From Ostreococcus lucimarinus (taxonomy: Eukaryota): a DNA stretch of 64,000 bases. Within the stretch, counting starts at the first letter, position 1; each line of letters opens with the position of its first letter. The position numbers and the translations under genes were made by a program. Under the pieces are notes generated by a model that saw only the letters and a list, made by a program, of their open reading frames with translations, searched no databases and had not been told where the DNA came from. The DNA lies in NCBI GenBank assembly GCA_000092065.1, contig CP000590.1; one strand, written 5' to 3'. Below are positions 249 through 38,943 of this stretch, piece by piece.

Positions 249-3200
249 TCAAGGGTCGATTTCGCCGCGCTCGATGGCGGCTTGTCGCGCGGCGGCGCGC
301 CGCTCGACGTCTTTTCGCGCGAGCTCGTCGGCTTGCGCGCGGAGGTTGGCGTATTCGGGCGGAATGCCGCCGGATTGCTCGAGCCACTTGCGCGCGGCGT
401 CGTCGGGAAGTACGATGGCGACGTCCAAGCGCTCTTCATCGGACATTTGGGTGAGGTAGTGCTCGGCCCAATCCGGAAGCGGGACGCCTTCCTCCGCAGA
501 GGCCATGCTGTGGATTTGGTCCTTGACGAGCCCCCAGAATTTTCCCTTGGAAGGGTCGTCCGACCAAATTGCGCTCATCAAATCGTCCCAATACACTTCT
601 TGCTGTTCACCCCACGCGATGTCCCAAACCCCCATGCCACGATCGCGTGTGATACCAGCCTTTTCGAAGGCTTGCGCAAGCTGGCGACCGCCGATTTCTC
701 GCGCCGTCGCGAGCGACTCCTTGAGCGAAAAGAGCATCTCTCTATTTTTCGGCTCGTGAAGAATCGCCACCGTACGCTGGGCCGCCTTAATCAACGTCTT
801 TCTCACCTCATTGTACACTAATAAATCCAATTCAGGCGATAACTGCCTCATCACCTCGATGTGCTCAGTCTTGCCGACGCGCAGGTAACCTTCTTCGCGC
901 GTAGGTTCGGCGGCGAGGGCGATGGGACCTAAATCACTCCACCCGTTCTGCATCACCATTTCGCACGCCAAATTCGTCGCAGCGGCGACATCGTGCATGC
1001 CGCGGGTCGTTACGTTCTCGGGACCGTACAAATAACGCTCCGCCATCTGGCCTGCGAGGAGTACGCACAGCTTGGCTTCGTAATACTCCATGGAGCGCAC
1101 CGTGCGAGCCGCGGGAGAGTCGACTTCATCCGGCACGTAGACGATTTGACCCGTGGCTACACCACCGTTAAACACCGTCACCTTGCTAATCTCGTCGTAC
1201 GAAGGCATGTGCATCGCGACCACGGCCTGCGCGGCGTAATAATTCACCACCGAGTCTCGTTCGTACGCGTCGAGTTGCGCGATGAGGGTATCTTCGAGCA
1301 TTCTATCGCGAGCCAAACTTCCGCTGCCACTTCCGTTGCGAACGAACGCTTGCGATCGTCGAATATCGTCGATGCAAAACAAGAAGTCACCCGTAGACGC
1401 GAGCGCCTTCTCGCCTTGCGCACAGCGCATGACGGCCGACTTGGTGAGGTTCTCGATGTCGGCGCCGCTGAAACCGGCAGTTTGTCTGGCGAGGTACTCG
1501 TAGTCCAAGTTGGGATCGACACTCGACGCGAACGATGGCTTGTTGCAGTGCAAGAACAAGATTTCTTGACGCGACTTCTTGTTCGGCAGACCCATCTCGA
1601 TGATGCGATCAAAACGACCGGCACGAATGAGCGCAGGATCGAGTACTTGCGGACGGTTCGTCGCCGCCAACACCATGATGCCCGTGGCGGTCGAGAAACC
1701 GTCCATCTCCGTCAGCATTTGATTGATCGTCGCCGTCGCTTCGTCGTTACCGTAAACCTGACCGGATTGTGTCTCAGTACGCTTCGTGCCGACGGCATCG
1801 AATTCATCGATGAAGATGATGCACGGCGCAACCTTCTTGGCTTGATCAAACAAGTTGCGAATACGCGCGGCTCCGACGCCGACGAACATCTCCATAAACT
1901 CCGTACCAGCGCATGAGAAGAAGGGCACATTTGCCTCGCCCGCGACACAACGAGCGAGCAACGTCTTACCCGTACCGGGCGGACCGCACAAAAGCACGCC
2001 TGCGGGAATGCGCGCGCCCATGGAGTTGTACTTTTCGAAATCCTTCAAGTAGGAAATGAGTTCAAACATTTCCGCCTTGACGTTGTCGATGCCGGTGATG
2101 TCCTTCAACGTCATCCCTTGGCGAACGTTCGAGTCGTAGTTACGCGTAGTCATGTTACCGAACATGTCTTCCGAGCTATCCTTGTACGTGCCTTCGTAAA
2201 TAAGCCACGCATAGAACACCATCACCATCGGCGTCAACGCGTTGAACAGGAACGCCGTAATCTCGAGCCAGCGAGGATACTTCTCCATCTCAATCTGAAT
2301 GACCCCTCCATTACCCGGTCTTTCGGTGACGAGCTTTTTGAACAACACCGGATCGTACGGAAGGTTGCAACCGAACACCTCCTCCGTGTCGTCGATGTAA
2401 TATCTAATGCTCGTCTCGTTGGCGCGGTACACCACGCGGTTGACGCGCCCGACGTCGAGTAATCTGTGGAACGACGTGTAAGACGTCTCCGTGGGGAATC
2501 TATCGGTGCCCATGGTTGAGTACGGATCGCGCAAGTACGCCAAGTTCACGTTGCGCACGAATCGTTCGCCGCGGTTGGAGAAAATCTTCTTGACGGGATT
2601 CTTCTTCTCCTGTTCGTACTTTTCGTACCGCTGGATGTCCTTCAAAACCTTTTCCTCCGCCGCGCTCAATTGCCTATTCCTACTCTCGGTGTGCTCACCA
2701 GTTTTCAACCCAACGAGTTCTTTCACCCTGTCCGCCATCACCTTCACCTTATCCACCTGTCCTCCCTGTTTGGGGGCCCTACGTTGGTGTTCTAAATTCA
2801 TTTTTTTCTTCTTCACCGTCCCGCGACGTCGTCGTCGTCTCTGCTTCGTCGGCGCCTCGACGACGCGCGGCTTATCCTCCGCGATCGCGTCGAGCTCTTC
2901 CAACAACTTCGCCGTCTCGTCCTCTTCATCCTTGGGATCGGAATCCACCGGCGCGATGTCGATCCCCACCCCCGCCACCTCGCCCACGCACGGCTCGCGC
3001 CGCGCGCTCGCCGTCGCCGCGCTCCTCGCCCCCTCCCGCCTCGCCTCGCGCGCCCCAGTCTCCAGCGCGCCCGCCGCTTTCGGCGCGCTCAACATCACCA
3101 ACGCCGCGATCGCGCCCATCTTCGTCGCCCGCTTCGCGCGCGCCCAGCCGTCGTCCGCGTTCGCGTCCCTCGCCGCGCGTCCCGCGCCGTCGTCGCCGCC

Positions 3201-3605
3201 GACGCCGCATCGCACCCCTCGTCCCCACCGCGCGCCCGCCTTCGCCCGCGCGACGCGCGCGCGTCGTCGTCCGAGTCCATCCGCGATCGCGCCGCGCGTC
3301 GGCGCGATCGTCGCGCCTCGCGCGATCGACATCGCGCGTCCGCGCGCGATCGGTCGAGTAAACCTAAGCCGCGATCGTCGAGCCGCGAATCGCGCGCGCG
3401 CGCGTCTCGAGGCGCGTCGAACCCGCGCGCGCGCGTCTCCCGACGCGTTCGCGACCTCGGCGCGCGCTTCGAGCGACCGCGCGTCGCGTCGCGCGCGTCG
3501 TCGTGTGCGCGCCGCCGCGCGCGGCGCGAGGGTTCGACGCGCGCTCGAATGATCGCGTTTCGTACGTCGTTTTCGACATACACTAGAGCATTTTAGCGCC
3601 ATCAT
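249..3605 (-). CDS. FtsH-like AAA+ ATPase / M41 peptidase homolog with degenerate zinc-binding site (FtsHi-like, presumed proteolytically inactive); 1118 aa ORF with Arg/Ala-rich N-terminal presequence-like region
   Basis: Walker A GPPGTGKT, Walker [10 protein letters not shown] and [23 protein letters not shown] are present. Where FtsH has AYHEAGHA the sequence reads [13 protein letters not shown], so HEXXH is lost. The rest of the M41 region is still alignable ([20 protein letters not shown]). Long C-terminal extension. The true start Met is uncertain because the N-terminal 200 aa is low-complexity. Confidence 0.8.
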
Positions 3606-3676
3606 TCAAAACGCTCGCGACGCGCGCCGACGCGCGCGCGACGGCGCGACGCGCGGCGACACCGCGACGCGCGACG

Positions 3677-4849
3677 ATGTCGAGCGTCGCGCCGACGCGC
3701 GCGCGATGGTCGTCGCGGCGGTTCGCGGGCGACGCGGGACGCGCGCGCGACGCGCGCGCGACGCGACGGCGCGCGCGAGATTTGAACGCGGCGCCGGCGA
3801 CGCGCGCGGGCGACGGCGACGGCGACGGCGCGGCGCTGGATTTCAACGCGTGCGCGCGCGAGCACGCGCGAGCGTTTCGCGCGACGCCGATGAGCGCGCG
3901 ACTGACGCGAGAGTTCGGGATGGGGGACTCGGGGACGGACGTGTCGCTCGCGCAGCGGTTGCTCGGGCGGGACGCGAGACGCGCGCACGGCGTGTGCGAC
4001 CGAGAGACGACGGAGGCGCTGCGCGCGTGGCAGATTTCGCGCGGATTAAAGCCGAGCGGGTTCTTCGGGGCGAGCTCGCGGGCGCAGATGGCGATGGAGG
4101 AGGAGCGGTGGCGCGAACTGGGGGGGGGGGCGCTGCTGGAGCGACTTTGGGAGGAGGAGGCGCGCGCGCGGGACGCGAGCGAACGCGCGAACGAACGCGC
4201 GGGAGGGAGCGGACGGACGCGCGGCGTGGTGGCGACGTCGACGACGCCGCGCGAAGCGCCGCGCGTCTCGCGCGTCGCGCGCGGCGCGTTGGTGTTGGTG
4301 GTCGCGTCGGCGGCTTTGGGCGCGGCGGCGCGTCTGAGAAATCGCGAGCGCTTCGCGGCGTTCGTCGATTCGGCGACGGCGTGGACGCGCGAATCGCGCG
4401 CGAAGGTCGCGCTCGACGTCGCGCGCGAGTTTATCGGCGCGTGCGGCGCGCGCGCGCGCGCGCGCTGGACCGAGATCGCCGCAGATTTCGCCGAGCGGCG
4501 CCGAGCGCTCGTCCGCGCCGCCGCGACGGCGATTTCTCGCGTTCGATCCGCGGCGGAACGCGTCGCGACGAACGACGCGCTCGACGCCGGCGCACCGCTC
4601 GCGGAGGGACACTTCGATGAAAACGGTCGCTGGTGGGAGTCCCCACTGCCCGCGTCCACGCCCAAAGCCGCCGACGCGAGGCCGCGTCCCGCCGAGCCGT
4701 CTCCGCGAGGCGGAGCGTCGACGGCTCGCGAGCGCGCCGAGCAAATGCGCGAGCGCTGGGTCAACATCCGTCGCCAACAGGTCGACGTCGGCGCGGACGA
4801 GCGTCGAGCGATTGAGCGCGTCTCTAAATTTCTCCGCGACGCCGAATGA
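3677..4849 (+). CDS. hypothetical protein with peptidoglycan-binding-like (PG_binding_1-type) domain
   Basis: The segment DVSLAQRLLGRDARRAHGVCDRETTEALRAWQISRGLKPSGFFGASSRAQM fits the LxxxLxxLG...G.FG..T..A...FQ...GL...G..G..T consensus. A Ser/Ala-rich ORF competes on the minus strand (3583..4956) and was judged antisense noise. Start uncertain. Confidence 0.45.
   Translation: MSSVAPTRARWSSRRFAGDAGRARDARATRRRARDLNAAPATRAGDGDGDGAALDFNACAREHARAFRATPMSARLTREFGMGDSGTDVSLAQRLLGRDARRAHGVCDRETTEALRAWQISRGLKPSGFFGASSRAQMAMEEERWRELGGGALLERLWEEEARARDASERANERAGGSGRTRGVVATSTTPREAPRVSRVARGALVLVVASAALGAAARLRNRERFAAFVDSATAWTRESRAKVALDVAREFIGACGARARARWTEIAADFAERRRALVRAAATAISRVRSAAERVATNDALDAGAPLAEGHFDENGRWWESPLPASTPKAADARPRPAEPSPRGGASTARERAEQMRERWVNIRRQQVDVGADERRAIERVSKFLRDAE
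4120..4130. repeat. G11 homopolymer inside a coding region
   Basis: Direct reading of gaactg followed by 11 g then cgctg. It encodes ELGGGALLE. Confidence 0.9.
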
Positions 4850-4939
4850 GCGCGCGCGCGCGATTTCAATGTACACGCATTCGTCGCCCTCGATTCGCTC
4901 CGTCGCCGCGCCTCCGCCGCGCCCGCACTCGACGACGCC

Positions 4940-6802
4940 ATGCTCGGTTTAGACACCTACGGCTCGTCCGATTCCGACGACGAGAACGACGCGCTCGCGA
5001 ACGTCGCGTCCGTCAAGCGCCCGATCGCGTCCGCGCCGCCCGTCGACGCCGGCGCGTTGGCGCTCGAGCGCGCGCTCGACGGCGATGGCGGCTCGACGGG
5101 AATGCGCGTCGTTCCGCTCGCGTCCACGCGCACGGTCGTCGGTGCGCGCGACGCGCGAACGCGATGGCATCGATCGATCGCTCGACGCGCGCGCGTCGCG
5201 CGAGGAACGCGCGTGGACGATGGACTGACGGAGATTCGTTCGACGCGCGCAGACCCGACGACGCGAGAGATGCGCGTGAACCTGACGTACGACGAGATGA
5301 CGGCCCCGATCGAGGGACCGAGGCACGAGACGCGAGAGGATAGACTCACGGGGCGAGGGGCGAGGAATCACGCGCTCGGGCAGGTGGACGCGACGACGGT
5401 GAACGCGTTTAGTTTCGACGAACAGTACAATACGTACAATTCGCGGGGGTACGCGGCGGCGCCGTCGGGGACTGGGGTCGTCGGTGACGCCGACGCGATG
5501 CGAGCGAGCAAGGGGGAGACGGCGTTTAATATTTCTGCGGCGAAAAAACGAAGGATTCGCGAGGAAGTGCTCGCGGGGGTGGCGACGCCGGCGAGCGGCG
5601 AGACGGATACGTCGGCGTGGGCGCCGGCTCGAGCGGCGCAAAAGGTGCTCGTGCACGATGATTTGTCGGAGAAGGAGAAGGAGTACGTGAAATGGCACAT
5701 GGATAATCGCGAGGCAAAGCTTCGGGCGAAAGGAAAGTTGGAAGGTTTGGAGACGGGTCCGGGCGAGGACGGCGGCGCTCAAGACGACTCAAAGTTTACA
5801 AAGTTTCACGGCTCGGAGGAAGTCAACTACGCGGGGGATTCTTGGATTGCGGCGCCAAAGAGCGAGAAGCGCGATGGAGATGGAACTTGCTTCGCGCCGA
5901 ACAAGTGCGTGCACACGTTTAACGGTCACACGAAGGGTGTGTCAAAGATTGAATTTTTCCCTCACACCGGTCACCTGTTGCTCTCGGCGGGCATGGACAA
6001 CGTGGTCAAGATTTGGGACGTGTACAACAGTCGAAAGTGCATGCGCACGTACATGGGACACGACAAGGCGGTAAAAGACGTGTGCTTCAACGGCGATGGC
6101 ACGCGCTTCGTGTCGACGTCGTGGGATAAAAAGGTTCGATTGTGGGACACGGAGACTGGCAAAATAATCCAAACCGTGACGAGCGGGAAAATCGGTTACT
6201 GCGCGAAGATTCATCCAAAGCAAGACAACTTGGTGTTGATCGGGCAGAGCGATAAAAAAATCGTGCAGTGGGACATGAACAACGGGGACTTGGTGCAAGA
6301 GTACGACCAGCATCTCGGGCCGGTGAACTCGATCACTTTCGCCGACGGCGGCGAACGCTTCATGTCCTCTTCGGACGACAAAACGCTTCGAGTTTGGGAG
6401 TTTGGAATCCCGGTGACGACTAAATACATCGCTGACCCGTCGATGCACTCCGTGCCCGCGACTGCGATATCGAACAACGGCAAGTACATCATCGGTCAAT
6501 CGCTCGACAATCAAATTATCACCTTTAGCGTCGACGAACGCTTTCGAAGAAACAACAAGAAACGCTTTGGTGGTCACCACAACGCCGGTTACGCGTGCCA
6601 GCCCGCGTTTTCTACCGATGACAGCACCGTCGTTAGCGGCGACGGGTCTGGTAAGATCTTCTTCTGGGATTGGAAGACGTCCAAAATCATCAAATCCGTC
6701 AAGGCGCACGCCGAGGTGTGCATCGGCGTCGCTTGGCACCCGCTCAAGAGCTCCGTCGTCGCGTCGTGCAGTTGGGACAAGACGATCAAGCTGTGGAAGT
6801 AG
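4940..6802 (+). CDS. PRP17: pre-mRNA-processing factor 17 (PRP17/CDC40), WD40 protein
   Basis: The N-terminus MLGLDTYGSSDSDDEN is typical of PRP17. The C-terminal half has 7 WD40 repeats (GHTKGVSKIEFFPHTGHLLLSAGMDNVVKIWDV, GHDKAVKDVCFNGDGTRFVSTSWDKKVRLWD and others). Single uninterrupted ORF. Confidence 0.9.
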   Translation: MLGLDTYGSSDSDDENDALANVASVKRPIASAPPVDAGALALERALDGDGGSTGMRVVPLASTRTVVGARDARTRWHRSIARRARVARGTRVDDGLTEIRSTRADPTTREMRVNLTYDEMTAPIEGPRHETREDRLTGRGARNHALGQVDATTVNAFSFDEQYNTYNSRGYAAAPSGTGVVGDADAMRASKGETAFNISAAKKRRIREEVLAGVATPASGETDTSAWAPARAAQKVLVHDDLSEKEKEYVKWHMDNREAKLRAKGKLEGLETGPGEDGGAQDDSKFTKFHGSEEVNYAGDSWIAAPKSEKRDGDGTCFAPNKCVHTFNGHTKGVSKIEFFPHTGHLLLSAGMDNVVKIWDVYNSRKCMRTYMGHDKAVKDVCFNGDGTRFVSTSWDKKVRLWDTETGKIIQTVTSGKIGYCAKIHPKQDNLVLIGQSDKKIVQWDMNNGDLVQEYDQHLGPVNSITFADGGERFMSSSDDKTLRVWEFGIPVTTKYIADPSMHSVPATAISNNGKYIIGQSLDNQIITFSVDERFRRNNKKRFGGHHNAGYACQPAFSTDDSTVVSGDGSGKIFFWDWKTSKIIKSVKAHAEVCIGVAWHPLKSSVVASCSWDKTIKLWK

Positions 6803-33844: not shown

Positions 33845-36800
33845 ATGAGCGTTCACGATCGGTTCCCGCACTCGACCGCGGAGCTGTGCCGCGTAAACGC
33901 GGTGCAGTTTGGGGTGTTGTCGCCCGATGAGATCGTACGTGCATCGAACGCGCGCGCGCGCGAAGCGAAGGCGCGAAAGAGCGCCGGCGCGGGAGATCTT
34001 CGAGAGGGCGAGGCGGCGAGGGCGAACGCGCGACGCGGGCGACGAAGGCGAGCGAGCGCGCACTGACCGAACGTGAAACTTTCGCGCGATAGCGTAAAAT
34101 GTCCGTGTGCGCGATCGAGACGAGCGAGACGTACGAGAAGGGTAGACCCAAGCGAGGGGGTTTGTCCGATCCGCGCATGGGGACGATGGATCGCGGCGCG
34201 GTGTGCGAGACGGACGGGTGCGACAGCGTGCAGACGCCGGGTTACTTTGGGCATCTTGAGTTGGCGAAACCGGTGTACCATCATGGGTTCATCAACGTCG
34301 TGTTGAGAATTCTGAGATGCGTCGGATACTCGTCTTCGCAATTGTTGCTGCACAAGGACGAGGACCCAAAGTTTGCGCAGTTGATGCGAATCAAGAACCC
34401 GAAAAACCGATTGAAGAAACTCACCGACGCGTGTAAAACCAAGAGCGTGTGTCCGTACACCGGGACGGCGCAACCGCAGTATCGTTTGGAGGGAATGAAG
34501 ATCACCGCCGAGTTCAAGCACCGCGACGAGGAGCTGTTGCCGGAAGGTGGCGAACGCAAGGTGATCGTCACCGCGGAGCGCGCGTTACAGATCTTGAAGG
34601 CGATTTCTGACGAGGATTGCCGTGCGCTGGGTCTCGACCCCGAGCACGCGCGTCCGGATTGGTTCATCTTGCAAGTGATGCCCGTGCCGCCGCCGCCGGT
34701 TCGTCCGTCGGTGTCGTTCGACGCTTCCACGCGCTCGGAGGACGATTTGACGGTCAAGCTCATGGAAATCGTGAGAACGAATAAAAATTTAGAGAGACAA
34801 GAACAAAATGGAGCGCCGCAGCACGTCATTTTAGAATTTACAGAGCTGCTTCAGTATCACATCATGACCTTCATGGACAACACGGTGGCTGGCATGCCGC
34901 GAGCGCTCACGCGCAGCGGCCGAAGCATTAAATCCATTTCAGAGCGTTTGAAGGGCAAGGCGGGTAGAATTCGAGGCAACTTGATGGGTAAGCGCGTGGA
35001 TTTCTCTGCGCGTACCGTCATTACGCCCGATCCAAACTTGATGCTCGACGAGCTCGGAGTTCCGTGGTCCATCGCGTTGAACATGACGTATCCGGAAACC
35101 GTGACGCCGTACAACATCGATCGCCTTCAACGATTGGTCGAGAACGGCCCGCATCCACCTCCTGGTGAGACCGGTGCGCGTTACATCATTCGTGAGGATG
35201 GTCAGCGACTCGATCTTCGCTTCTTGAAGAAGTCGAGCGAGAAGCGTCTCGAGTACGGTTACAAAGTTGAACGTCACATGGTGAACGGAGACGTCGTCCT
35301 GTTCAATCGTCAACCTTCTTTGCACAAGATGTCCATCATGGGTCATCGCGTCCGAATCATGCCTTACTCGACGTTCAGATTGAACTTGTCTGTCACGCCG
35401 CCATACAACGCTGATTTTGATGGGGATGAAATGAACATGCACCTTCCGCAGTCTTACGAGACACGCGCGGAGGTGAAGGAGTTGATGATGGTACCGAAAA
35501 TGATCGTATCGCCCCAGGCCAACAAGCCCGTGATGGCTATCGTGCAAGACACCTTGTTGGGTTGCCGCTTGATCACGAAGCGCGACACCTTCATCACAAA
35601 GGACGTCTTCATGAACATCATCATGTGGTTGGAGGATTGGGACGGGAAGGTGCCGAAGCCGGCTATCCTCAAACCCCAACCTTTGTGGACTGGTAAACAA
35701 GTGTTTTCGATGATGTTACCGAAGGTGAACTTGCTTCGCACGAGTGCGTGGGCCAAGGACTCCGACGACATGGCTTTCAGCGTGGACGACACCGGTGTCC
35801 GAATTGAACAAGGCGAATTGCTCACCGGGACGCTGTGCAAGAAGACTATGGGTAGCGGCGGTGGCGGTTTGATCCACGTGACCTGGGAAGAGTGGGGTCC
35901 CATCGCCGCACGCGGGCTCATCTCTCAGACGCAGACGCTCGTCAACTACTGGGTGCTCCACCACGGTTTCACCGTCGGCATTGCGGATACCATTGCGGAC
36001 GACGAGACAATGTTCTCCATTAACAACACCATCACCAAGGCTAAAGCTGACGTGAAGGAAGTCATCAAACTCGCACAAAACAATGAACTCGAGTTGCAAC
36101 CGGGTATGACGATGCAACAATCGTTCGAACAGAAGGTGAACCAAATCTTGAACAAGGCGCGTGATAACGCTGGTAACTCGGCGCAAAACTCGCTTATGGA
36201 TACCAACAATGTCAAGATGATGGTGACGGCCGGTTCGAAGGGTTCGTTCTTGAACATTTCGCAGATGATTGCGTGTGTAGGACAACAAAACGTAGAAGGA
36301 AAACGTATTCCGTACGGTTTCAAAGGCAGAACATTGCCGCACTTTAGCAAGGATGATTTCGGTCCCGAGTCGCGTGGTTTCGTCGAGAACTCGTATTTGC
36401 GTGGTTTGACTCCTCAGGAGTTCTTTTTCCACGCCATGGGTGGCCGAGAAGGTTTGATCGATACTGCAGTTAAGACGTCTGAAACTGGTTACATCCAACG
36501 TCGTCTTGTCAAGGCTATGGAGGACGTGGTTGTCAAGTACGACGGCACTGTGCGTAACAGCGTCGGCGACGTCATCCAGTTCTTGTACGGCGAGGACGGC
36601 ATGGACGCGACCATGATTGAAAGCCAATCCATCGATACGTTGCGTTTCAGCGTGAAGGAGTTCGCGGCGAAGTTCCACATCGATCCAGATGTCCCGGGCT
36701 TTAACAATGGCTGGTTGAGCGAGGAGCAAGCGAGCGAACTCGCGCACACTGCAAAGGTGCGCGAGATTCTTGACGCAGAATGGGATCGACTTCAGCGCGA

Positions 36801-38943
36801 CCGAGTCGAACTGCGAACGATTTGTCCCACAGGGGATCCTCACGTGCACTTACCAGTGAACATGAAGCGTATCTTGTGGAATGCACAAAAGCAGTACGGC
36901 CTGTACCGACCGGATTCTGGCGAAGAAGAGGTCAAGGTGACGCACATCATCGAGAGCGTCGCTGAACTTTTGCCGAAGCTCATCGTGGTGCCTGGTACAG
37001 ATCCGTTATCCGTCGAAGCGCAAAGAAACGGTACGATGCTATTTTTCGCGCACGTGCGCGCCAATTTGGCAGCCAAGCGCGTGCTGAAAGAACACAAGCT
37101 CACGCGCGCCGGCTTCGACTGGGTCATCGGCGAAATCGAATCACGCTTCAAGATGGCACTTGCGCCGCCCGGTGATGGTATTGGCACGGTTGCCGCGCAA
37201 TCAATCGGTGAGCCGGCGACGCAGATGACGTTGAATACGTTCCACTTCGCCGGTGTGTCCGCCAAGAACGTGACCCTTGGTGTGCCGCGCTTGAAAGAAA
37301 TCATCAACATCGCGAAGAGCATCAAGACGCCAAGCTTGACGATCGCACTCAAGCCAGAGTTAGCTGGTGACAGAACGAGAGCGAAGGACTGTCAAGCGAG
37401 CCTAGAGTACACCACGCTCCACAGCGTTGCCGCAGTCACCGAGGTTCACTACGATCCAGATCCCACGGACACTGTCATCGAGGAAGACCGCGAATTCGTT
37501 CGCGCGTACTACGAAATGCCAGACGAAGACGTTGACCCGTCGCGCATGTCCCCATGGTTGTTGCGTATCGAGCTTAACCGTGAGATGATGGTAGACAAGA
37601 AGCTCCTCATGGCGGATGTTGCGGAGAGAATCAACGAAGATTTCGCCGGCGACTTGAGCTGCATCTTCAACGACGACAACTCTGAAAAGTTGGTGTTGAG
37701 AATTAGAATCATGAACCCCGAAGGCGTGAAATACGAGGACGCCTCGACCGAGGACGAAGTATTCTTGAAGCGTCTCGAGACGCAGATGTTGAGCAACCTT
37801 GCATTGCGCGGTATTCCAGACATTAAGAAGGTTTTCATCCGCGAAGCCAAACAAAACGCCATCAACAGCAAGACGGAGCTCTTCGAGAAAACCACCGAGT
37901 GGATGTTGGACACCGAAGGCGTCAACTTGCTCGAAGTCATGGCACATCCGGACGTCGACTTCACGAGAACTACATCTAACCACTTGATTGAAGTGATTCA
38001 AGTTCTTGGCATCGAAGCGGTGCGCAATACGCTCTTGCGTGAGTTGCGTGGTGTGATTGAGTTCGACGGTTCGTACGTGAACTACAGACATCTCGCGATT
38101 CTCGTCGAAGTGATGACATACCGTGGTCACTTGATGTCGATTACGCGACACGGCATCAACCGCGTGGAGACCGGTCCGCTCATGCGCTGCAGCTTCGAAG
38201 AAACTGTCGACATTCTCATGGAGGCGTCGGCGTTCTCTGAGCGAGACAATATGACTGGGCCGAGCGAGAATATCATGCTCGGGCAGTTCTGTCCGATCGG
38301 TACCGGGGAGTTCAAGCTGCACTTGAACGACGAGTTGTTACAAGATGCAGTTGAGTTAGAACTGTTCGGGGATGGATCTAGGACCCCTGGACACGGCGGA
38401 ATGATGACGCCGGGGCGCGATGGAACGCCCGGTTGGGGATCAAAGTCGCCGAGTTTCTTGTTGAGTCCAGGTGGACATCAAAGTCCGTTCGATACAAGCA
38501 TGGCATTCTCGCCGTACTCCGATGGCATGGCGTTCTCACCGGGAATGTCCCCTGGTGGTTTTGGAGGTTACTCCCCCACGAGTCCAGCGTATTCTCCGAC
38601 GAGCCCAGCATACTCCCCCACGAGTCCGGCGTACTCGCCCACGAGCCCAGCGTACTCGCCCACGAGTCCAGCGTACTCGCCCACGAGCCCGGCTTACTCG
38701 CCCACGAGTCCAGCGTACTCCCCCACGAGTCCAGCGTACTCCCCCACGAGTCCGGCGTACTCGCCCACGAGCCCAGCGTACTCGCCCACGAGTCCAGCGT
38801 ACTCGCCCACGAGCCCGGCTTACTCGCCCACGAGTCCAGCGTACTCCCCCACGAGTCCAGCGTACTCCCCCACGAGTCCGGCGTACTCGCCCACGAGCCC
38901 AGCGTACTCCCCGAAAGAGGAAGAAGAAAACGAAGAAGAATAG
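33845..38943 (+). CDS. RPB1: DNA-directed RNA polymerase II largest subunit RPB1, 2 exons: 33845..33934, 34093..38943; CTD of 16 perfect YSPTSPA heptads
   Basis: Exon 1 encodes ...VNAVQFGVLSPDEI. Exon 2 continues RKMSVCAIETSE..., which restores the conserved VQFGxLSPDEIRxMSV. All RPB1 regions A-H are recognisable (NADFDGDEMN metal-binding site and others). The C-terminus holds tandem YSPTSPA repeats ending YSPKEEEENEEE. Confidence 0.93.
33935..34092 (+). other. RPB1 intron (158 nt, phase 0)
   Basis: Donor GTACGTG, branch-like GCACTGACC 30 nt before the acceptor GATAG. Confidence 0.85.
38569..38904 (+). repeat. RPB1 CTD heptad array: 16 x 21-bp units encoding YSPTSPA, containing a perfect 126-bp (6-heptad) tandem duplication (38632..38757 = 38758..38883)
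   Basis: Unit-by-unit reading shows synonymous variation between neighbouring heptads. The 6-unit block is repeated identically, and a 7th identical unit starts a third copy. Confidence 0.9.

What the first reader, a model, noticed from the sequence alone, without database searches (positions are those of the whole stretch)
3677..4849. Peptidoglycan-binding-like domain protein encoded head-to-head with the FtsHi-like gene
The plus-strand ORF contains a good match to the PG_binding_1 fold consensus (LAQRLLG...GVCDRETTEALRAWQISRGLKPSGFFGASSRAQM). Some prasinophytes retain plastid peptidoglycan-pathway genes, so a PG-binding protein sharing a 70-bp divergent promoter region with an envelope AAA protein is suggestive. 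It is far from proven.
Basis: inference. Interest (0 to 1): 0.5.

Follow-up and report, generated by a model that had tools for sequence, protein, structure and literature searches.

The report
Algal membrane protein with peptidoglycan-binding fold
This is a real, conserved gene of the tiny green alga Ostreococcus for a membrane-anchored protein carrying a genuine bacterial-type peptidoglycan-binding domain, but the genus has lost peptidoglycan synthesis, and lying next to the FtsHi gene gives little evidence that the two work together.

Summary
The plus-strand ORF 3677-4849 (390 aa) is a real gene. It stays open and conserved in every orthologous locus, whereas the overlapping minus-strand Ser/Ala-rich ORF is broken in diverged relatives.

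Residues about 75-137 form a true PG_binding_1 domain:
- The window protein alone scores below Pfam's cut-off (17.3 vs 23 bits).
- More distant orthologues pass it.
- A family profile retrieves hundreds of bona fide bacterial PG_binding_1 repeat proteins (E down to 3e-24).

The architecture is a basic presequence, the PG_binding_1 domain, one membrane helix, and a small conserved C-terminal module. I found that module only in Ostreococcus-like genomes.

The neighbour is a true FtsHi: AAA plus M41 domains, no HEXXH.

- Published surveys find only DDL and MurE of the peptidoglycan pathway in Ostreococcus.
- The head-to-head pairing sits inside a 15-kb block that is collinear throughout the group.
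- The one outgroup homologue has no FtsHi nearby.
- No chain in the PDB copies searched, which include solved chloroplast motor complexes, matched the domain.

Most likely this is a lineage-restricted organellar membrane protein that uses the domain as a ligand- or protein-binding module. Interest is modest.

The parts
3677..4849 (+). Complete intron-less CDS (390 aa plus stop) of the PG_binding_1-domain membrane protein
   Evidence: ORF. Thirteen homologues at 45-98% identity and more distant orthologues P0014, P0017 and P0065. The sense ORF is intact in all orthologous loci.
3677..3832 (+). Residues 1-52: poorly conserved basic presequence, organelle-targeting-peptide-like
   Evidence: The first 40 aa hold 11 R/K, 3 D/E and many A/S/T, with no hydrophobic signal-peptide core. 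Orthologues have the same composition. Only 9-42% identity to orthologues. Targeting is inferred, not predicted with a dedicated tool.
3833..3898 (+). Residues 53-74: conserved helix (ALDFNAxAREHA..PMSARL) packing on the domain
   Evidence: Conserved in alignments A1 and A3. Helix at residues 56-67 in the confident model.
3899..4087 (+). Residues 75-137: PG_binding_1 domain (three-helix bundle; GVCDxxT..WQ..GL.PSG signature)
4088..4171 (+). Residues 138-165: long conserved helix after the domain (EEExWRxxGGxxLL)
   Evidence: Helix at residues 132-163 in the model. Invariant W145, R146, G149 and G150 within the closer family.
4271..4339 (+). Residues 199-221: single hydrophobic, probably membrane-spanning segment followed by a basic cluster
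   Evidence: Best 19-residue Kyte-Doolittle window is 1.92, at residues 200-218. An equivalent segment occurs at the same position in all orthologues, usually with a basic cluster just C-terminal of it (net charge of the 15-residue flank +1 to +7 in eight of nine sequences, -1 in P0012). Helix 195-230 in the low-confidence full-length model.
4604..4651 (+). Residues 310-325: conserved EGHFDxxGRWWESPxP motif (predicted beta-hairpin)
   Evidence: Invariant in A2. The GRWWE motif occurs only in the Ostreococcus-like orthologues among 205 proteins held. Strands 309-313 and 319-323 in a low-confidence model.
4730..4837 (+). Residues 352-387: conserved basic C-terminal helices (RAEQMRERWVNIRRQ ... 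DERRAIxRVSxFL)
   Evidence: Invariant columns in A2. 33-88% identity across orthologues. No Pfam or PDB sequence match.
3570..3676 (.). Divergent intergenic / promoter region shared with the FtsHi gene; AT-rich island at 3570-3615
   Evidence: Lowest-GC 40-mer (38% GC) of the region. A lower-GC stretch lies between the two genes in the other seven loci examined, marked (17-40% GC) in six and weak (53%) in L006. Sequence.
249..3605 (-). Neighbouring FtsHi-type gene (AAA plus Peptidase_M41, catalytic HEXXH lost); context, not shown to be functionally linked
   Evidence: Pfam AAA 5.4e-43 and Peptidase_M41 6.6e-21. No HExxH; Walker A GPPGTGKT at 541; [11 protein letters not shown] at 656. Best PDB relatives are bacterial FtsH, with weaker matches to Chlamydomonas Fhl3 and Arabidopsis FTSH12.
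3583..4956 (-). Overlapping antisense 457-aa Ser/Ala/Arg-rich ORF: non-coding by-product of high GC
   Evidence: No Pfam hit. The antisense stretch is open over the whole gene only in the window and in two of the nine orthologue loci examined (L004, L006). It is reduced to 150-263 aa in the other seven (for example L001 150, L016 208, L033 234), while the sense ORF stays intact.

Best explanation
The plus-strand ORF is a real nuclear gene of an Ostreococcus-type prasinophyte.

Shown: it encodes a protein with a basic, poorly conserved N-terminal presequence, a genuine PG_binding_1 three-helix domain flanked by two extra conserved helices, and one hydrophobic segment. After a variable spacer comes a small conserved C-terminal module (a GRWWESP hairpin plus basic helices ending RVSxFL). 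I found that module only in Ostreococcus-like genomes.

Inferred:
- The presequence sends the protein to an organelle, most likely the plastid.
- The hydrophobic segment anchors it in a membrane.
- The basic cluster after the segment suggests the C-terminal module sits on the stromal ('inside') face and the PG_binding_1 domain on the intermembrane or lumenal face.
- The genus is reported to lack all peptidoglycan-pathway enzymes except DDL and MurE, yet the domain is the best-conserved part of the protein. It therefore most likely works as a binding module for a protein partner or a small peptide/glycan-like ligand, not as an anchor to a peptidoglycan wall. Arabidopsis pTAC5 is a precedent for such a domain in a plastid without a wall.
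- The shared spacer with the FtsHi gene is the normal consequence of a head-to-head pair in a very compact, collinear genome. It is not in itself evidence of a common function.
For: Real gene:
- Protein-level conservation across lineages down to 28-36% overall identity, with in-frame indels.
- The sense ORF is always intact, while the antisense ORF is broken in most diverged loci.

Domain identity:
- Pfam hits in 11 of 14 members; orthologues above the gathering score.
- Reverse profile search: 376 hits with E<=1e-3, the non-orthologous ones checked being bona fide PG_binding_1 repeat proteins.
- AF2 pLDDT 93.

Architecture and selection: identity is concentrated in the domain (53-92% in six of seven orthologues) and the C-terminal module, against 7-30% in linkers once the closest relative P0003 is set aside.

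No peptidoglycan expected: the three Ostreococcus genomes contain only DDL and MURE (PMC4815162).

Precedent: pTAC5 (AT4G13670) is a chloroplast nucleoid protein listed with a peptidoglycan-binding domain (PMC4080259).

Adjacency uninformative: the whole block is collinear, and the outgroup homologue P0045 has no FtsHi nearby.
Against: - Localisation and topology rest on composition and the positive-inside rule only. No targeting predictor or experimental data were available.
- The hydrophobic segment is Ala/Gly-rich and only moderately hydrophobic (KD 1.4-2.0).
- The FtsHi pairing survived at least two local rearrangements of the block: an 866-aa gene inserted downstream in L019/L020/L035/L036, and another insertion in L006. 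This is weakly compatible with selection for the pair.
- A residual peptidoglycan-like ligand cannot be excluded, because DDL and MurE are retained.
- The full-length model is poor (pLDDT 47), so nothing structural is known about the C-terminal half.
Confidence: 0.55

Rival explanations
1. The protein is a lineage-specific accessory subunit or tether of the Ycf2/FtsHi chloroplast import motor. It would be co-expressed with the FtsHi gene from the shared divergent promoter, with its PG_binding_1 domain in the intermembrane space beside the FtsHi N-terminal domains.
Against: The whole 15-kb block is collinear, so adjacency carries little information. The outgroup homologue P0045 is not next to an FtsHi. 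No sequence-profile or fold match to any chain of the solved motor complexes (entries seen in the PDB sequence copy). The family is narrowly distributed whereas FtsHi is reported as widespread in green plastids. No expression or interaction data.
Confidence: 0.12
2. The domain still binds a peptidoglycan-derived ligand in the plastid envelope. This could be a remnant wall or a DDL/MurE-derived peptide or nucleotide-muropeptide. The protein would then be a relic of the cyanobacterial wall-anchoring apparatus.
Against: Ostreococcus is reported to lack MurA-D, MurF, MraY, MurG and PBP, and no peptidoglycan layer has been observed in prasinophytes by conventional electron microscopy (PMC4815162). 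[quoted passage not shown] 2008, cited), and my recollection is that this role lies outside wall synthesis.
Confidence: 0.12
3. The protein is not plastidial. It could be mitochondrial, or a membrane protein displaying the domain at the cell surface to sense or bind bacterial peptidoglycan in the phycosphere.
For: Arg/Ala/Ser-rich presequences do not distinguish plastid from mitochondrion. The basic flank after the hydrophobic segment would put the N-terminal domain outside if the protein were inserted in the plasma membrane.
Against: No hydrophobic signal-peptide core in the first 30 residues of the window protein or of the other full-length models. Translocating a 190-residue N-terminal domain without a signal peptide is unusual (my own knowledge).
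Confidence: 0.1
4. The expressed gene is the overlapping minus-strand Ser/Ala/Arg-rich ORF (3583-4956), and the plus-strand domain match is fortuitous.
For: The antisense ORF is open for 457 aa and shares the high-GC third codon position (GC3 0.83 vs 0.84).
Against: The antisense frame is interrupted in most diverged orthologous loci, while the sense frame is always open. It has no Pfam match. The sense protein folds confidently into a known domain. A UniRef entry from Ostreococcus sp. 'lucimarinus' corresponds to the sense protein.
Confidence: 0.01

Closest known systems
Bacterial and phage PG_binding_1 (PF01471) domains, e.g. Burkholderia phage AP3 endolysin (5nm7), SleB N-terminal domain (6tci), Streptomyces Zn DD-peptidase (1lbu), phiKZ gp144 (3bkh)
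   Different: The bacterial domains are fused to wall-modifying enzymes and occur in organisms with peptidoglycan, often as tandem repeats. Here there is a single copy in a eukaryote, with a presequence, a membrane anchor, a private C-terminal module and no enzymatic domain, in a genus reported to lack peptidoglycan synthesis.
Arabidopsis pTAC5 (AT4G13670), a plastid nucleoid protein with a peptidoglycan-binding domain
   Same: A nuclear-encoded plastid protein that keeps a PG-binding-type domain in a plastid without a wall (PMC4080259). It shows that such domains can be re-used.
   Different: pTAC5 is listed with zinc-dependent disulfide isomerase activity, which by my recollection resides in a DnaJ-type Cys-rich zinc finger. 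No CxxCxGxG motif occurs in any family member held. The Ostreococcus protein has a membrane segment and different C-terminal motifs. Direct sequence comparison with pTAC5 was not possible.
ExeA/GspA-EpsAB of bacterial type II secretion (periplasmic PG_binding_1 domain, 4g54)
   Different: In ExeA/EpsAB the ATPase and the PG domain are in one polypeptide and bind real peptidoglycan. Here they are separate genes and no physical link is shown.
Auxiliary single-pass subunits of the Chlamydomonas Orf2971-FtsHi motor (Moc13, Moc50)
   Same: [quoted passage not shown]
   Different: No sequence or fold similarity detected. None is described as having a PG-binding fold.

Membership tests
PG_binding_1 (Pfam PF01471) domain superfamily | Significant sequence-profile similarity over the full domain length | tested here: met
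   The window protein alone is sub-threshold (17.3 bits vs a gathering score of 23, E 0.0053, profile positions 2-55 of 57). Orthologues P0014 and P0017 score 25.5 and 24.6 bits. The family profile hits proteins that carry 4-7 PG_binding_1 repeats with E down to 3.4e-24.
PG_binding_1 (Pfam PF01471) domain superfamily | Three-helix bundle fold of solved PG-binding domains | tested here: met
PG_binding_1 (Pfam PF01471) domain superfamily | Signature D-G-h-h-G-x-x-T ... FQ ... GL..G motif | tested here: met
   Present as H-G-V-C-D-R-E-T ... WQ ... GLKPSG. The G-h-h-D-x-x-T variant also occurs in many bacterial repeat proteins among the hits. G105, D108, T111, Q119 and G128 are invariant across the family.
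PG_binding_1 (Pfam PF01471) domain superfamily | Actual binding of peptidoglycan | not testable with these tools
   Needs a sacculus or muropeptide binding assay. The literature says Ostreococcus has only DDL and MURE.
Subunits of the Ycf2/Orf2971-FtsHi chloroplast import motor | Homology to a subunit seen in the solved Chlamydomonas or Arabidopsis complexes | tested here: not met
Subunits of the Ycf2/Orf2971-FtsHi chloroplast import motor | Physical association or co-purification with FtsHi proteins | not testable with these tools
   Only gene adjacency is available. It is conserved within the collinear Ostreococcus-like block and absent for the outgroup homologue P0045.
pTAC5-like plastid proteins | PG-binding domain combined with a DnaJ-type Cys-rich zinc finger (CxxCxGxG) | tested here: not met
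   No CxxCxGxG in the 205 proteins held, which include all P-numbered family members; the window translation itself also contains none by direct reading.
FtsHi (pseudo-protease FtsH) - the neighbouring gene | AAA plus Peptidase_M41 domains with the zinc-binding HEXXH motif lost | tested here: met
   AAA 5.4e-43 and M41 6.6e-21. No HExxH in 1118 aa; the equivalent site reads [11 protein letters not shown]. Walker A and the arginine-finger region are intact.

The most novel reading that the evidence does not exclude
The protein descends from a wall-anchoring protein of the cyanobacterial endosymbiont and survived the loss of plastid peptidoglycan in Ostreococcus. It did so by becoming an intermembrane-space tether or accessory of the FtsHi/Ycf2 import motor, co-regulated with it from the shared divergent promoter. 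This would be a eukaryotic counterpart of the bacterial ExeA/GspA arrangement, in which an AAA+ ATPase works with a PG_binding_1 domain.
Probability: 0.1. Interest if true: 0.65.

Novelty: new member of a known kind. Interest (0 to 1): 0.3.

Why it matters
It adds an uncharacterised example of a bacterial wall-binding domain kept under purifying selection in a plastid-bearing eukaryote that no longer makes the wall. That bears on how peptidoglycan-related proteins were re-used after the plastid wall was lost; pTAC5 in land plants is a documented parallel, and MurE is another as I recall it. If the protein turned out to touch the FtsHi motor or a muropeptide-like ligand, it would give a tractable handle in Ostreococcus tauri, which as I recall is transformable. 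As it stands it is a domain that automatic pipelines already flag (UniRef 'Peptidoglycan binding-like domain-containing protein'; JGI 'peptidoglycan hydrolase-like protein with peptidoglycan-binding domain' on orthologue clusters). It sits in a lineage-restricted protein of unknown role, and the gene-neighbour argument is weak.

Tried and rejected
- Full-length AlphaFold2 with a 12-sequence alignment gave pLDDT 47 and was not used for fold search.
- A family profile searched against PDB sequences gave only chance hits to viral fusion proteins through the hydrophobic segment.
- The afdb50 fold library was unavailable. No survey of predicted eukaryotic structures (Micromonas, Bathycoccus, Chlamydomonas, plants) could be made.
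- The word-indexed protein search returned few distant relatives. No named homologue from Micromonas, Bathycoccus, Chlamydomonas or land plants was returned, so the taxonomic range rests on unnamed metagenome contigs judged by GC content and synteny.
- The minus-strand ORF as the real gene: rejected.
- pTAC5-type architecture: rejected, no zinc-finger motif.
- D in place of the second motif glycine as a sign of a degenerate domain: rejected, because the same variant is common in bacterial repeats.
- Searching the N-terminal part of the FtsHi neighbour against PDB to assign it to a particular FtsHi paralogue gave nothing. The C-terminal part matches bacterial FtsH better than Fhl3 or FTSH12, so the paralogue is left unassigned.
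- Literature searches for this protein or for a PG-binding subunit of the FtsHi complex found nothing relevant.
- I did not scan the rest of the window for Mur/Ddl/PBP genes. 64 kb of a roughly 13-Mb genome (size from memory) would not be informative, and the published survey answers the question.

Full report
**Source and setting.** The window is GC-rich (about 62%) and densely packed with intron-less eukaryotic genes. The closest named relative of the ORF in question is a UniRef entry from Ostreococcus sp. 'lucimarinus', at 98% identity. The window is therefore nuclear DNA of an Ostreococcus-type prasinophyte.

Pfam reports PG_binding_1 (PF01471) at residues 86-136, covering profile positions 2-55 of 57. 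The score is only 17.3 bits (E 0.0053), below the gathering score of 23. On this sequence alone the match would be suggestive, not proven.

Four further lines settle it:
- Eleven of 14 close homologues hit the same model.
- More distant orthologues with the same overall architecture, P0014 and P0017, score 25.5 and 24.6 bits, above the cut-off.
- A profile of 12 family members was searched exhaustively against 1.84 billion representative proteins and gave 376 hits at E<=1e-3. Apart from orthologues, the best are proteins with four to seven PG_binding_1 repeats, or an L,D-transpeptidase. All match through profile positions about 74-134, with E down to 3.4e-24.

The domain is genuine and of the bacterial type.

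**Which strand.** The region is so GC-rich that several frames are open, including a 457-aa Ser/Ala/Arg-rich antisense ORF.
- The sense protein is conserved across lineages down to about 28-36% identity, with in-frame indels.
- In nine orthologous loci the sense ORF is always intact. The longest open antisense stretch falls to 150-263 aa in seven of them, and spans the whole gene only in L004 and L006.
- The antisense product has no Pfam match.

The plus strand is the gene.

**Anatomy**:
- *Residues 1-52:* a basic, Ala/Ser/Thr-rich, poorly conserved presequence without a hydrophobic signal core.
- *Residues 53-74:* a conserved helix (ALDFNAxAREHA).
- *Residues 75-137:* the PG_binding_1 bundle.
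- *Residues 138-165:* a long conserved helix.
- *Next:* a low-complexity linker.
- *Residues 199-221:* one moderately hydrophobic segment, usually followed directly by a basic cluster.
- *Next:* an 85-residue variable helical stretch.
- *Residues 310-325:* an invariant EGHFDxxGRWWESPxP motif.
- *Residues 352-387:* basic helices ending DERRAIxRVSxFL.

Identity to orthologues is 53-92% in the domain (34% in the most diverged, P0065) and 33-88% in the C-terminal helices. In the linkers it is only 7-30% once the closest relative P0003 is set aside. Selection therefore acts on the domain and on the C-terminal module.

The C-terminal motifs were found only in the Ostreococcus-like orthologues among all proteins retrieved. 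They have no Pfam or PDB sequence match.

**The neighbour.** ORF 249-3605 (-) has AAA (5.4e-43) and Peptidase_M41 (6.6e-21) domains. Walker A and the arginine-finger region are intact, and there is no HExxH anywhere; the catalytic site reads [11 protein letters not shown].

The two maximal ORFs start 71 bp apart. An AT-rich island at 3570-3615 overlaps the first codons of the maximal FtsHi ORF, and a lower-GC stretch lies between the two genes in the other seven loci examined, marked in six and weak in L006. The real spacer is probably somewhat longer.

**Does the pairing mean anything?**
- I fetched 37 related loci. Wherever upstream DNA is visible, the FtsHi gene is head-to-head with this gene.
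- All those loci have 57-63% GC and share the whole order Sec7-GEF / FtsHi / this gene / WD40 / cathepsin-L / proteasome alpha / DP / SAS-6-like / Kelch-phosphatase. The adjacency is therefore part of general collinearity within one compact-genome clade.
- Two local insertions did not separate the pair: an 866-aa gene between this gene and WD40 in L019/L020/L035/L036, and an L-PSP gene in L006. That is at best weak evidence for constraint.
- The only homologue found outside the clade is P0045. It has a presequence, the domain, a hydrophobic segment and a long disordered tail without the C-terminal motifs. It lies on a 360-kb contig of 69.5% GC with no FtsHi within 10 kb on either side.

**Comparison with the solved motors.**
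- The Chlamydomonas Orf2971-FtsHi motor has 20 subunits. The sections of the paper I read, and a term search of its main text, mention no PG-binding subunit (10.1101/2024.09.02.610899).
- The PDB sequence copy contains that complex and the Arabidopsis one (8xqw/8xqx, 8xks, 8xku/8xkv).
- Neither the sequence profile nor the fold searches with the domain model touched a chain from such complexes.
- A role as a conserved motor subunit is thus not supported. A lineage-specific accessory role cannot be excluded.

**Does peptidoglycan exist here?** van Baren et al. 2016 (PMC4815162) state that the three Ostreococcus genomes and Bathycoccus contain only DDL and MURE of the pathway. Micromonas pusilla has it complete. 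No peptidoglycan layer has been observed around prasinophyte plastids by conventional electron microscopy. A wall-anchoring function in Ostreococcus is therefore unlikely.

There is precedent for re-use. Arabidopsis pTAC5 (AT4G13670) is a chloroplast nucleoid protein listed with a peptidoglycan-binding domain (PMC4080259). The Ostreococcus protein is not pTAC5-like in architecture, since it has no CxxCxGxG zinc finger.

**Most likely explanation (confidence about 0.55 overall).**
- *Near-certain:* this is a real gene with a genuine PG_binding_1 domain.
- *Inferred:* it is organelle-targeted, probably to the plastid, and membrane-anchored. By the positive-inside rule the domain faces the intermembrane or lumenal side and the C-terminal module the stromal side.
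- *Inferred:* the domain serves as a binding module for a protein partner or a small peptide/glycan-like ligand, not for a wall.

**Rivals.**
- A lineage-specific FtsHi-motor accessory (0.12).
- A binder of a residual peptidoglycan-derived ligand (0.12).
- A non-plastid location, mitochondrial or cell surface (0.10).
- The antisense ORF as the real gene (0.01).

**Novelty and interest.** Automatic pipelines already flag the domain. UniRef names the close relative 'Peptidoglycan binding-like domain-containing protein'. JGI labels orthologue clusters 'peptidoglycan hydrolase-like protein with peptidoglycan-binding domain', and one member of the closest cluster 'murein L,D-transpeptidase YcbB/YkuD'.

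I found no paper on the protein. It is a new, lineage-restricted member of a known domain family with a private C-terminal module. The link to FtsHi and to plastid peptidoglycan remains speculative. I rate interest at 0.3.

Noticed in passing
window 3570-3615 and 249-3605 (-): An AT-rich island (38% GC in a region of about 65-70% GC) overlaps the first codons of the maximal FtsHi ORF. Called orthologues are 991-1047 aa against 1118 aa here. The real FtsHi start codon is probably downstream of the first ATG, and the intergenic spacer longer than 71 bp.
   Followed up: partly
window 3583-4956 (-), 3706-4620 (+), 4046-4876 (-): Several long overlapping ORFs (457, 304 and 276 aa) in other frames of the same GC-rich stretch. 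They are Arg/Ala/Ser-rich and have no support. The 457-aa antisense frame was tested and is not conserved in most diverged orthologue loci.
   Followed up: yes
L019 10066-13206, L020, L035 8649-11249, L036 2409-5009: In one sub-lineage (GC about 57-58%) an extra gene for an 866-aa protein without any Pfam hit sits between the PG-binding-domain gene and the WD40 gene. L006 has a Ribonuc_L-PSP gene inserted between the WD40 and cathepsin genes.
   Followed up: no
L033 9876-9924: A perfect 20-bp inverted repeat (GACGCCACTAATGTAAACAC ... GTGTTTACATTAGTGGCGTC) with a 9-nt spacer rich in ACGTG. It lies in the spacer between the FtsHi and PG-binding-domain genes of a diverged orthologous locus and is not seen in the window.
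   Followed up: no
P0004 (423 aa, 6.6-kb ENA contig): A 95%-identical variant whose sequence diverges completely after about residue 260 and runs past the normal stop. It looks like a frameshift from an assembly error or a pseudogenised allele.
   Followed up: no
window 4940-6802 (+): The next gene, for a 620-aa WD40 beta-propeller protein, starts only 91 bp after the stop of the PG-binding-domain gene. This illustrates how compact the genome is and why short shared spacers are the rule.
   Followed up: partly
window 36001-38000: A stretch of lower GC (52%) than the window average (62.5%) in the composition profile. It was not examined.
   Followed up: no
P0217 (member of the P0001 cluster): One JGI record names the same protein 'murein L,D-transpeptidase YcbB/YkuD'. 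This over-annotation was probably transferred from the PG_binding_1 domain alone. The window protein and the A1 homologues show no catalytic-domain hit; P0217 itself was not scanned.
   Followed up: partly
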